Of a stretch of DNA of 64,000 nucleotides, positions 24,580 through 50,709 are shown piece after piece (position 1 is the first letter of the stretch; every line of letters begins with the position of its first letter). The notes beneath the pieces are model-generated. The model saw only the letters and a program-made list of their open reading frames with translations. It was not told the origin of the DNA and did not search any database. Source of the stretch: the human T2T-CHM13v2.0 reference genome, Homo sapiens; assembly GCF_009914755.1 (NCBI RefSeq), contig NC_060943.1. One strand, given 5' to 3'. The translations under genes and the position numbers were made by a program.

Positions 24580-24843
<264 letters not shown>

Positions 24844-24949
24844 TGAACCCCTGGGCTCAAGTGATCCTCCTGCCTCATCTTCCCAAAGTCCTGGTATTAC
24901 AGACGTGAGCCACTGCGCCCGGCAAAGATATTTTATTCTGTTTAGAATT

Positions 24950-27918: not shown

Positions 27919-27957
27919 CTGTTTTCATTGAGGGAGCTTCAAGTTCATCGTGTTTAT
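27919..27957 (-). CDS. VSTM1: VSTM1 exon 4, stalk (DKHDELEAPSMKT)
   Basis: ttttctag|ATAAACAC...AAAACAG|gtaag; 39 nt. Confidence 0.93.
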
Positions 27958-29324: not shown

Positions 29325-29546
<222 letters not shown>

Positions 29547-31550: not shown

Positions 31551-32019
31551 AAGTGATGCAAAATTATTCTTTATCCCTCTTCCTTGGGATCTCAAGTCAT
31601 GTATGTTACAATCCTCCCACGTGCATCTTCTCACTGTGGTCCTCATCATTTTTTTTTCAGTTACCTGCACCATGCCTCCCATACTTTTCCACACAATGGG
31701 ATCTCTTAGCCCCACAATCCATTATTTGCCATTCCTACATCCCTCATAGAGCACTGGACACTCTTTCTGGCTTTCCTTCTCTGGCATAATGAAATATAAA
31801 TTTTCATTTATGTCTGAATAACAACTGTGAAGCTCATTGTTTTTGTGACACTGGGGAGGTCACCTAATCTCTATGAGCAAAAAGAAGTTAGTAACACAAC
31901 CACCCTCATAGGAAGTGAAGACTGAATGAGTTAGTGGAGGCAAGTTACCTGTCGTGGAGACAGGAACATAGAAAATGCTGGATACATGTCAAATGCCAGT
32001 GTTATCACTCTATCCTCAC

Positions 32020-32313
32020 CTGTCACCCAGATCTCCAGCTTGTTGCTGGGGAAGGAGGCCAAGTGTGATGAGTTGCTCAGGTAATACACACAGCTGTAGT
32101 TTCCACTGTCATTACTTGTCACGTTCCAGAGCATGAAATCAGTCTGGTTTTTTCTTACTTGCCTGACTTGTAATGGTTCTGGGATCCCCATTTTCAACAG
32201 AGCAATTACAATACATTCGGTTCCATTGTATGGAGTGAGACATCGAAGTGTCCTGAGACCTGGAGTCATCCCAGGGTCTACATTGACTGAGAGCAAAGGT
32301 TCTGGGAGTGATC
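32020..32313 (-). CDS. Candidate alternative/cryptic second Ig-domain exon in VSTM1 intron 3 (GSLPEPLLSV...NKLEIWVT, 98 codons)
   Basis: Open frame; pyrimidine-rich acceptor ttgtccccttcag|GA; donor ACAG|gtgag; phase 1-1; TLRC and DSGNYSC Ig motifs; ~41/98 identities to TARM1 exon 4 by manual alignment. Actual use in transcripts cannot be seen from sequence. Confidence 0.7.
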
Positions 32314-32411
32314 CTGAAGGGGACAAGGCAATGGAGGTAAAGAGAAGGGCCAGGGCTTTTCCATTTTCTACTGCACTTGGGGACTATCTCATCCATCTCT
32401 CCGTATTAACC

Positions 32412-34534: not shown

Positions 34535-35083
<549 letters not shown>

Positions 35084-50412: not shown

Positions 50413-50709
50413 CTGTCACCAATATCTCAAGCTGATCACTGGGTTCTGAGGCCCAGAAGGGAGACTTTGTCTGGTAGTACATGCAGCTGTAGTTCCCAGC
50501 ATCGCCGGCTGTCACGTCCACCAGAGAGAAGTCTATCTCCTTCCCCGCTGGACTCTGCAGCTGGATGGGTGATGGCGTCCCTGCCTTCAGTAGAGCGAAC
50601 ATGATAGGCACAAACAATTGGTCTCGCTTCTGGCACTGCAGAGTCACCCTTCCACCTGCGGTCACTGTACCCCTTTGGTAGGTTCGGAGGAAAGGTTTAG
50701 ATAAATGTC
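50413..50709 (-). CDS. TARM1: TARM1 exon 4, Ig domain D2
   Basis: cttacag|GACATTTA; ACAG|gtaag; 297 nt; overlaps ORF 50342..50665. Confidence 0.96.

What the first reader, a model, noticed from the sequence alone, without database searches (positions are those of the whole stretch)
32020..32313. Hidden, intact second Ig-domain exon in VSTM1: a latent two-domain SIRL-1
Seen: a 294-nt stop-free exon with a strong pyrimidine-rich acceptor (ttgtccccttcag|) and a consensus donor (CAG|gtgag). It is phase 1-1 and lies exactly where a D2 exon belongs, between VSTM1 Ig exon 3 and stalk exon 4. It keeps both canonical Ig cysteines, aligns to TARM1 D2 at ~41/98 residues (ALLK-G-P-P-Q, DF-L--VT--D-GNYSC-YY, AS-PS--LEI-VT), and has 6 N-glycosylation sequons plus one extra unpaired Cys (TEC). 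Established: canonical SIRL-1 (236 aa) has a single Ig domain. Inference: inclusion gives a 334-aa two-Ig inhibitory receptor with the same ectodomain architecture as activating TARM1. It could change ligand range, project D1 further from the membrane, or dimerise via the free Cys. Read-through of the donor would instead give a secreted D1-D2 form. Predicted gene models may already contain this exon; I cannot check that here.
Basis: partly seen in the sequence, partly recalled or inferred. Interest (0 to 1): 0.85.

Follow-up and report, generated by a model that had tools for sequence, protein, structure and literature searches.

The report
Annotated, mostly skipped VSTM1 D2 exon
The stretch is a real, intact exon for an ancestral second immunoglobulin domain of the human myeloid inhibitory receptor VSTM1/SIRL-1, but gene databases already list it in predicted isoforms, and the human copy has lost a cysteine that related mammals keep.

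Summary
Window 32020-32313 (minus strand) is a 294-nt, phase 1-1, stop-free exon with good splice signals. It encodes an LRC-type Ig domain that matches TARM1 D2 at 41 of 97 residues.

It is not hidden. The hub's RefSeq table lists exactly this exon among VSTM1's other transcripts. NCBI's predicted human isoforms X3, X4 and X5 contain it at 100% identity.

It is the ancestral membrane-proximal domain (D2) of VSTM1. Gene models of lemurs, loris, tree shrew, colugo, rodents, lagomorphs, xenarthrans and tenrec-type afrotherians carry it, at 48-78% identity by BLASTP. None of the 35 named non-human haplorhine cluster representatives does. Mouse lemur and tree shrew also have models that skip it exactly, so it behaves as a cassette exon in those species too.

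All 19 other Euarchontoglires D2 rows pair it with Cys79, whereas human has Ser79, plus Q78L and P82S at sites invariant in 18 other species.

Rate tests do not settle whether the domain is decaying or in use.

Most likely it is a low-usage relic cassette exon. Novelty is low.

The parts
32020..32313 (-). VSTM1 D2 exon: 294 nt, phase 1-1, 97 whole codons plus split codons. It encodes an LRC-type Ig domain with Cys24 and Cys74, orphan Cys33 and six sequons.
   Evidence: Listed in the hub's RefSeq table under exons of other transcripts. Contained in human isoforms X3, X4 and X5.
32314..32345 (-). Acceptor region: pyrimidine tract (14 of 17 at -20..-4), cag|G acceptor, and a TTTAC branch-point-like site at about -25.
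   Evidence: The branch-point reading is by eye.
32014..32019 (-). Donor intron bases gtgagg; with the exon end CAG they match the consensus at 8 of 9.
31931..32019 (-). Hypothetical read-through tail: 29 codons and then a stop if the donor is not used.
   Evidence: The same open frame appears as a gene-caller ORF, P0126, on unnamed short contigs, which is not evidence of expression.
34799..35083 (-). VSTM1 D1 (ligand-binding Ig) exon, the upstream splice partner of the D2 exon.
   Evidence: Hub table.
27919..27957 (-). VSTM1 stalk exon, the downstream splice partner of the D2 exon.
   Evidence: Hub table. The stalk residues DKHDELEAPSMKT follow D2 in X3, X4 and X5.
50413..50709 (-). TARM1 D2 exon, the closest paralogue within the window.
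   Evidence: 41 of 97 identities; sister clade, joint support 100/98.

Best explanation
The stretch is the ancestral membrane-proximal (D2) Ig-like exon of VSTM1. It is orthologous to the D2 that is part of the main VSTM1 model in many other placental mammals, and paralogous to TARM1 D2.

In the human gene it behaves as a frame-preserving cassette exon. The selected transcript NM_198481.4 joins D1 (34799) directly to the stalk (27957). Predicted RefSeq isoforms splice 34799->32313 and 32020->27957 and so encode D1-D2 proteins.

The human copy keeps the Ig core and its splice signals. It has lost Cys79, the partner of Cys33, and has changed two otherwise invariant neighbours (Q78L and P82S; P82S creates a new NSS sequon).

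I infer that inclusion is low in humans and other haplorhines. I also infer that the domain is under weakened constraint, so that any D1-D2 SIRL-1 is a minor product and possibly a poorly folding one. On this reading it is a relic on its way out, not a concealed main form.

Shown: the exon anatomy, the orthology, the annotation status, the taxonomic spread and the broken Cys pair. Inferred: low usage, the disulfide contact and weakened constraint.
For: Anatomy and frame.

Already annotated: the hub table lists the exon. One search gave 15 proteins at E<=0.001 among 46 candidates. Three are human isoforms X3, X4 and X5 at 100% identity and coverage. maps them onto the D1 and D2 exons.

Orthology: in the domain tree (39 rows) the human D2 lies inside a VSTM1-D2 clade of 18 rows with support 100/97. 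That clade is sister to TARM1 D2.

Spread:
- One search found 152 proteins at E<=1e-10 among 995 candidates and listed 120.
- Of 121 proteins parsed by BLASTP, 29 carry a VSTM1-type D2, at 48-100% identity.
- Carriers are human, 3 strepsirrhines, Tupaia, Cynocephalus, 6 named rodent genera, 2 lagomorphs, 3 xenarthrans and 3 afroinsectiphilians, plus 3 unnamed rows (P0017, P0019, P0056).
- 0 of 35 named non-human haplorhine representatives carry it. No listed laurasiatherian, elephant or manatee VSTM1 model carries it either.

Cassette behaviour elsewhere: Microcebus (339 vs 242 aa) and Tupaia (309 vs 219 aa) have models that differ by exactly D2.

Broken pair: of 179 Ig domains aligned to a D2 profile, 19 have Cys at both positions 33 and 79, and all 19 are non-human Euarchontoglires VSTM1 D2. 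Cys33 without Cys79 occurs in only 4 rows: the 3 human isoform rows, which are one exon, and 1 platypus IGSF1-like domain. The 6 Atlantogenata D2 rows have H or Y at 33 and W or R at 79.

Human-private changes at sites invariant in all 18 other species: Q78L and P82S. The N80 sequon is found in 0 of 21 other rows.

Rates: strepsirrhines hold D2 far tighter than D1. Paths from the primate ancestor are 0.12-0.21 for D2 against 0.47-0.53 for D1. In the human lineage D2 (0.133) changes at least as fast as D1 (0.098). The human/strepsirrhine path ratio is 0.75 [0.40-1.49] for D2 and 0.19 [0.05-0.43] for D1; D2 was at or below D1 in 0.5% of bootstrap pairs.

Literature describes human VSTM1 as single-domain: passages of PMC11848704, PMC6557307 and PMC9162367.
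Against: Nothing in the core splice signals explains skipping.

The human D2 is not a long branch: 0.11 against a median of 0.18.

Tajima-type relative-rate counts show no excess on the human D2 lineage. Human-only changes are 5-11 and strepsirrhine-only changes are 6-13, and all 21 triples give p>=0.096.

The human share of total tree length is not significantly larger for D2 than for D1: 0.031 against 0.020, P=0.22. The D1/D2 contrast could therefore come from fast D1 evolution in strepsirrhines.

The count of private changes is matched by other species. Within Euarchontoglires it is 5 for human, 5 for Nycticebus and 4 for Cynocephalus.

An open frame after long disuse is not very unlikely from stops alone. 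Simulated P(no stop) is 0.41 at 7.5% divergence and 0.69 at 3%. Staying free of indels and keeping both splice sites as well would be less likely, which argues for some continuing use or for recent disuse.

Absence from monkey models may reflect thinner RNA evidence. Ape models at 90% identity or more to the human representatives would be hidden inside the human-led clusters; P0005 stands for 18 sequences.
Confidence: 0.66

Rival explanations
1. It is a regulated, functional isoform. In some myeloid state human cells include D2 and make a two-Ig inhibitory SIRL-1, or the soluble D1-D2 form X4. This would equal the default lemur form. It would project D1 further from the membrane or add a binding surface. 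The orphan Cys33 would be used for covalent dimers or ligand capture.
For: The frame is intact and the splice signals are strong. The Ig core motifs are kept. The human branch is not long and there is no significant rate excess. Two-Ig ITIM-bearing VSTM1 is the modelled form in Microcebus (P0012, 339 aa) and others. Both included and skipped forms are modelled in Microcebus and Tupaia, so regulated use of the exon may be old. Three predicted human isoforms contain it.
Against: The exon is absent from the selected transcript (hub table). Human descriptions in the passages read call VSTM1 single-domain. The three human representatives seen are all atypical: one has no TM, one has no ITIM tail, and one is altered after the stalk. 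The conserved Cys79, Q78 and P82 are lost. 0 of 35 named non-human haplorhine representatives carry D2.
Confidence: 0.2
2. It is a dead pseudoexon. It is never spliced in at a meaningful level, and the predicted isoforms come from splicing noise or from homology-guided model building. The intact frame is survival by luck after recent disuse.
For: Only 'X' (predicted) isoform names were returned for D2-bearing human proteins. The neutral simulation shows that a stop-free frame survives fairly often: 0.69 at 3% divergence and 0.41 at 7.5%. The F-G region has lost three conserved residues.
Against: Both splice sites, the pyrimidine tract, the whole frame and both core cysteines are intact, with no indel against orthologues over 97 codons. 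P0007 (X4) is also held by UniRef, EukProt and Metaclust. That suggests a source independent of NCBI's predictor, though this is my inference and was not checked.
Confidence: 0.13
3. It is a chance open frame with Ig-like motifs, not a real exon.
For: None beyond the marginal Pfam score: Ig_2 at 27.3 bits against a cut-off of 27.
Against: E 2e-22 to TARM1 D2. E 1e-31 to 1e-46 to orthologous VSTM1 D2 in other mammals. Clade support of 100/97. Exact use in annotated models (hub table).
Confidence: 0.01

Closest known systems
Two-domain VSTM1 of other placental mammals (for example the Microcebus murinus isoform X2 model of 339 aa; also the armadillo VSTM1 predicted as two-domain by Guselnikov and Taranin 2019, PMC6557307)
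   Same: The exon position is the same. D2 identity to human is 64-78% by BLASTP for Microcebus, Lemur, Nycticebus, Tupaia and Dasypus. They fall in the same clade. In Microcebus, D2 is followed by stalk, TM and a tyrosine-motif tail. The paper states that armadillo VSTM1 d2 is highly related to TARM1 d2 (passages).
   Different: In those species D2 is in the main model. In human it appears only in predicted isoforms. Human lacks Cys79, Gln78 and Pro82. The paper describes human VSTM1 as single-domain and, in the passages I read, does not mention a human D2 exon.
TARM1 D2 (window 50413-50709)
   Same: Both are phase 1-1 exons of about 295 nt. They share 41 of 97 residues, including ALLK, DF.L..VT..D.GNYSC.YY and PS..LEI.VT. 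They are sister clades.
   Different: TARM1 D2 is constitutive in the selected transcript (hub table). It has no Cys at position 33 or 79. TARM1 is named an activating receptor, whereas the VSTM1 TM segment in X5 has no charged residue and VSTM1 carries ITIMs (review passages).
VSTM1-v2, the known soluble splice form lacking the TM exon
   Same: Isoform X4 (P0007, 303 aa) has the same TM-less join from stalk to cytoplasmic tail (v2 is described in passages of PMC11848704 and PMC10101491).
   Different: X4 additionally carries D2. No paper found in my searches describes it.
Solved two- and four-domain LRC receptors (LILRA6, LILRB3, LILRB2, PIR-B, OSCAR, GPVI, NKp46, Fc-alpha-RI)
   Same: These are the best sequence matches among solved structures, at E 1e-16 to 1e-5. 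They share the Ig type.
   Different: No VSTM1 or TARM1 chain was among the 28 distinct PDB sequences matched. Identity is distant.
Extra CDR1-CDR3 disulfide of camelid VHH domains (recalled, not tested)
   Same: It links the start of strand C to the F-G loop, the same topological places as Cys33 and Cys79 here.
   Different: It belongs to an unrelated Ig family. The comparison rests on my residue-register reasoning, not on a model.

Membership tests
LRC-type Ig-like domain | B- and F-strand cysteines about 50 residues apart, with the D-x-G-x-Y-x-C motif | tested here: met
   Cys24 and Cys74; NDSGNYSC at residues 67-74.
LRC-type Ig-like domain | Match to Pfam Ig models above the curated cut-off | tested here: met
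   Ig_2 27.3 bits against 27 (marginal); ig 24.8 against 21.8. In X4, Ig_2 matches two stretches.
LRC-type Ig-like domain | One domain per exon, phase 1-1, about 290 nt | tested here: met
   294 nt, a multiple of 3, with split codons at both ends.
LRC-type Ig-like domain | Nearest solved structures are LRC receptors | tested here: met
   LILRA6, LILRB3, LILRB2, PIR-B, OSCAR and GPVI head the list of 28 matches.
VSTM1 D2 orthologue group | Lies between the D1 exon and the stalk exon of VSTM1 | tested here: met
   Hub table coordinates; isoform mapping.
VSTM1 D2 orthologue group | Falls inside the VSTM1-D2 clade and not with TARM1 D2 or D1 types | tested here: met
   Clade of 18 rows with support 100/97. 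BLASTP identity is 48-78% to VSTM1 D2 of other species against 42% to TARM1 D2.
VSTM1 D2 orthologue group (Euarchontoglires form) | Second cysteine pair, Cys33 and Cys79 | tested here: not met
   Human has Cys33 and Ser79. 19 of 19 other Euarchontoglires D2 rows have both.
Exon of the reference SIRL-1 mRNA | Present in the selected transcript NM_198481.4 | tested here: not met
   The hub table shows the selected transcript going from 34799-35083 to 27919-27957.
Annotated alternative exon | Present in at least one database transcript or protein model | tested here: met
   Hub table ('exons of other transcripts ... 32020-32313'); human isoforms X3, X4 and X5.
Expressed alternative exon | Junction reads, cDNA or peptides from human cells | not testable with these tools
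   No RNA-seq, EST or proteome resource was available. Paper searches gave no description of it.
TARM1-like activating receptor | Charged TM residue for adaptor pairing and a short tail | tested here: not met
   The TM segment in X5 (IFVAIFSCISILLLFLSVFIIY) has no charged residue. The review describes two ITIMs in VSTM1.

The most novel reading that the evidence does not exclude
D2 skipping may be a haplorhine-specific splicing switch and not decay. On this reading, human myeloid cells in some state (for example differentiation, activation or a tissue niche) include the exon. They then make a two-Ig SIRL-1, or a soluble D1-D2 form. Its orphan Cys33, freed by the human-lineage C79S change, would form intermolecular disulfides. 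That would alter avidity or ligand range for S100 proteins, LL-37 and other amphipathic peptides.
Probability: 0.12. Interest if true: 0.55.

Novelty: already known. Interest (0 to 1): 0.27.

Why it matters
SIRL-1 is studied as a single-Ig inhibitory pattern-recognition receptor of neutrophils and monocytes. Antibodies, ELISAs and recombinant ectodomains are all built on the one-domain form.

If a D1-D2 form were made in appreciable amounts, it would change the expected size, glycosylation, shedding products and possibly the ligand reach of the receptor.

They do give a clear evolutionary picture. Two-Ig VSTM1 is the ancestral placental form, the exon is modelled as a cassette in lemur and tree shrew, and haplorhine models drop it. 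The human copy carries a specific lesion, an orphan cysteine, which is cheap to test.

For annotation, the exon is already in RefSeq, so there is nothing to add there.

Tried and rejected
- Structure prediction of X4 with a 30-row alignment (A1) was not accepted: the tool was 'being made ready', and again after the required 20 other calls. There is therefore no model, no fold search and no measured 33-79 distance.
- A protein search in the 53-170 aa range, looking for D2-only fragments from apes or monkeys, returned one row. It is P0126, an 86-aa gene-caller ORF on human-like short contigs that reads through the donor. It is not evidence of expression.
- I looked for a relic of the xenarthran third Ig domain in the human locus with Tamandua, Microcebus and Camelus proteins. 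Only the four known Ig exons matched.
- Tajima-type relative-rate tests gave no significant human excess in D2.
- Counting private substitutions did not single out human.
- Paper searches for a described human D2 exon, pseudoexon, splice QTL or isoform found nothing relevant. One search was too broad: none of its 15 listed papers mentions VSTM1. The TCGA splicing paper PMC6203144 names a VSTM1 mutually-exclusive-exon event only in figure legends, without coordinates. Supplements were not opened.
- dN/dS could not be computed because no primate DNA is reachable with these tools.
- No complex prediction was sent, because I do not claim binding or dimerisation.

Full report
**Observation.** On the minus strand, the window reads ...ccattgccttgtccccttcag|GATCAC at 32313 and GTGACAG|gtgagg at 32020. 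The exon is 294 nt.
- Read from its first base it is full of stops. In phase 1 it gives 97 codons with no stop (P0001).
- P0001 has Cys at 24, 33 and 74 and six N-x-S/T sequons.
- It matches TARM1 D2, translated from 50414-50707, at 41 of 97 residues with E 2e-22.
- The matches to TARM1 D1 (37 of 104) and to VSTM1 D1 (20 of 77) are weaker.
- Pfam sees an Ig domain just above cut-off: Ig_2 27.3 against 27, and ig 24.8 against 21.8.
- The nearest solved structures are LRC receptors: LILRA6, LILRB3, LILRB2, PIR-B, OSCAR and GPVI. Among the 28 distinct sequences matched there is no VSTM1 or TARM1 chain.
- In the window's own genome the exon is single-copy. The next-best matches are three chrX exons (45%, 42%, 34%) and TARM1 D2 (46%).

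**Splice signals.** I compared all annotated VSTM1 and TARM1 exons in the window. The D2 exon has 14 of 17 pyrimidines at -20..-4 and a donor matching the consensus at 8 of 9. The constitutive D1 exon has 11 of 17 and 8 of 9. A TTTAC branch-point-like site sits at about -25 (read by eye). Nothing in the core signals explains why the selected transcript skips the exon, and this stays unexplained. If the donor were ignored, 29 more codons would follow before a stop.

**Annotation status.** The hub's RefSeq table lists 32020-32313 under 'exons of other transcripts' of VSTM1.
- A protein search with P0001 against longer proteins gave 15 hits at E<=0.001 among 46 candidates.
- tblastn puts their D1 and D2 parts on 35084-34797 and 32332-32021. 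The first few aligned residues of the D2 piece run into the intron, which is an extension artefact.
- From their sequences: X4 is D1-D2-stalk joined to the cytoplasmic tail without the TM exon. X5 has the TM segment but ends 12 residues later, with no ITIM tail, and one search shows it reading past the TM exon's donor. X3 departs from the canonical sequence after the stalk.
It may be hidden inside a 90% cluster (P0005 stands for 18 sequences), so I cannot say whether it is modelled.

**What it is.** A second search with X4 gave 152 proteins at E<=1e-10 among 995 candidates, of which 120 were listed. I parsed the Ig domains of 121 stored proteins by BLASTP against the four window domains.
- 29 proteins carry a VSTM1-type D2, at 48-100% identity to P0001.
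- Named carriers are human; Nycticebus, Microcebus and Lemur; Tupaia; Cynocephalus; Nannospalax, Castor, Marmota, Sciurus, Ictidomys and Jaculus (partial); Lepus and Oryctolagus; Dasypus, Tamandua and Choloepus; Tenrec, Echinops and Chrysochloris.
- None of the 35 named non-human haplorhine representatives carries it. These cover gibbons, one chimpanzee row, Old and New World monkeys and tarsier.
- No listed VSTM1 model of horse, rhinoceros, bat, pig, whale, carnivore, mole, elephant or manatee carries it.
- Two caveats apply. Ape models at 90% identity or more to a human representative would be merged into it. Absence from a model is not absence from the genome.

A maximum-likelihood tree of 39 domain rows puts the human D2 inside a VSTM1-D2 clade of 18 rows (support 100/97). 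That clade is sister to TARM1 D2, with joint support 100/98. All D1-type domains fall on the other side.

Guselnikov and Taranin (PMC6557307; passages read) already noted that armadillo VSTM1 is predicted to have two domains, with d2 close to TARM1 d2. They describe human VSTM1 as single-domain.

The Microcebus (339 vs 242 aa) and Tupaia (309 vs 219 aa) models differ by exactly the D2 segment. The exon is therefore modelled as a cassette in those species too.

**A human-specific lesion.** In the D2 alignment every non-human Euarchontoglires row has Cys at both position 33 and position 79 (...YYQC...). The six xenarthran and afrotherian rows have H or Y at 33 and W or R at 79. Human has Cys33 and Ser79.
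- I aligned 179 Ig domains from all stored proteins to a D2 profile. 19 have both cysteines, and all 19 are non-human Euarchontoglires VSTM1 D2. 155 have neither.
- Cys33 alone occurs only in the three human isoform rows (one exon) and in one platypus IGSF1-like domain.
- Cys79 alone occurs only in the truncated Jaculus model.
- The joint presence or absence suggests a second disulfide between the start of strand C and the F-G turn. A recalled analogy is the CDR1-CDR3 disulfide of camelid VHH domains.
- Human also has Q78L and P82S at sites invariant in all 18 other species. Within Euarchontoglires it additionally has S6L, C79S and G85A.
- P82S creates the N80 sequon, which is found in 0 of 21 other rows. 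The other five sequons are shared with 5 to 17 of the other rows.

**Is the human domain decaying?** The evidence is mixed.
- For relaxation: on a fixed species tree, the paths from the primate ancestor for D1 are 0.098 (human) against 0.47-0.53 (strepsirrhines). For D2 they are 0.133 against 0.12-0.21.
- With 90 bootstraps per domain, the human/strepsirrhine ratio is 0.19 [0.05-0.43] for D1 and 0.75 [0.40-1.49] for D2. D2 was at or below D1 in 0.5% of bootstrap pairs.
- Against: this contrast may come from fast D1 evolution in strepsirrhines. The human share of tree length does not differ significantly between domains: 0.020 against 0.031, P=0.22.
- Relative-rate counts for D2 are balanced: human-only 5-11, strepsirrhine-only 6-13, with p>=0.096 in all 21 triples.
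- The human D2 tip is short: 0.11 against a median of 0.18.
- Nycticebus and Cynocephalus have as many private changes as human.
- A random-substitution simulation on the exon keeps the frame open in 69% of runs at 3% divergence and 41% at 7.5%. An open frame alone therefore says little.
- Keeping both splice sites and having no indel over 97 codons would be less likely under long disuse. I did not quantify that with a tool.

**Best reading.** The stretch is the ancestral VSTM1 D2 cassette exon. It is still structurally intact and already annotated. It is skipped in the reference transcript and appears in human only in predicted, atypical isoforms, and its disulfide pair is broken. Most likely it is a low-usage relic (confidence 0.66). 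A regulated functional two-Ig isoform remains possible (0.20). So does a pseudoexon whose models reflect noise (0.13).

**Literature.** I found no paper that describes a human D2 exon or a two-Ig human SIRL-1.
- Searches run.
- Passages read in PMC11848704, PMC10101491, PMC6557307, PMC9162367, PMC6775213, PMC6182393, PMC5319034, PMC6203144 and bioRxiv 10.1101/2022.03.03.482795.
- No supplements were opened.
- The 2025 review states that there are seven Ensembl splice variants, of which v1 and v2 are considered functional, and one Ig domain.
- Subscription papers are outside the library. These include, from recall, the original 2010 SIRL-1 paper and the 2012 VSTM1-v2 paper.

**Verdict.** The novelty is low because the exon is in RefSeq and two-domain VSTM1 is in print for another mammal. 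The orphan-cysteine finding and the taxonomic pattern are modest additions. RNA junction counts and primate genomic comparison would settle the matter.

Noticed in passing
window 29408-29483 (-) and 24824-24912 (-): Two other alternative VSTM1 exons look like Alu exonisations. The first follows a long poly-T tract and gagacag|GG and ends CCCAG|gtaatcctcccacctcagcctcccaag. The second has the acceptor gccgggcgcag|TGG. The Alu identity is recalled, not tested.
   Followed up: partly
proteins P0008, P0010, P0015 (Dasypus, Tamandua, Choloepus VSTM1 models): Xenarthran VSTM1 models carry a third Ig domain of D1 type. It is 47-54% identical to human D1 and forms its own clade with support 99/95. No relic of it is detectable in the human locus.
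   Followed up: yes
proteins P0020, P0052 (Myotis VSTM1-like models): These bat models have two or three tandem D1-type domains and no VSTM1-type D2. P0052 begins with a TARM1-D2-like piece.
   Followed up: no
VSTM1 D1, window 34799-35083 (-): D1 evolves about five times faster on strepsirrhine lineages than on the human lineage: 0.47-0.53 against 0.098 substitutions per site from the primate ancestor. Their D2 is well conserved; Microcebus and Lemur share 90 of 97 D2 residues against 63 of 94 in D1.
   Followed up: partly
window 31931-32190 (-), protein P0126: An 86-aa ORF runs from Met41 of D2 through the donor to the intronic stop. It is held in the protein database from 8 short unnamed contigs. 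It looks like a gene-caller ORF on human DNA in other data sets.
   Followed up: yes
G000 C23:129597603-129608859 (loci L002, L004, L005): The closest paralogues of VSTM1 D2 outside chromosome 19 are three chrX Ig exons (45%, 42%, 34%). This fits the published grouping of TARM1 d2 with IGSF1 d3, d9 and d11 (PMC6557307 passages). I assumed they are IGSF1 exons and did not check.
   Followed up: no
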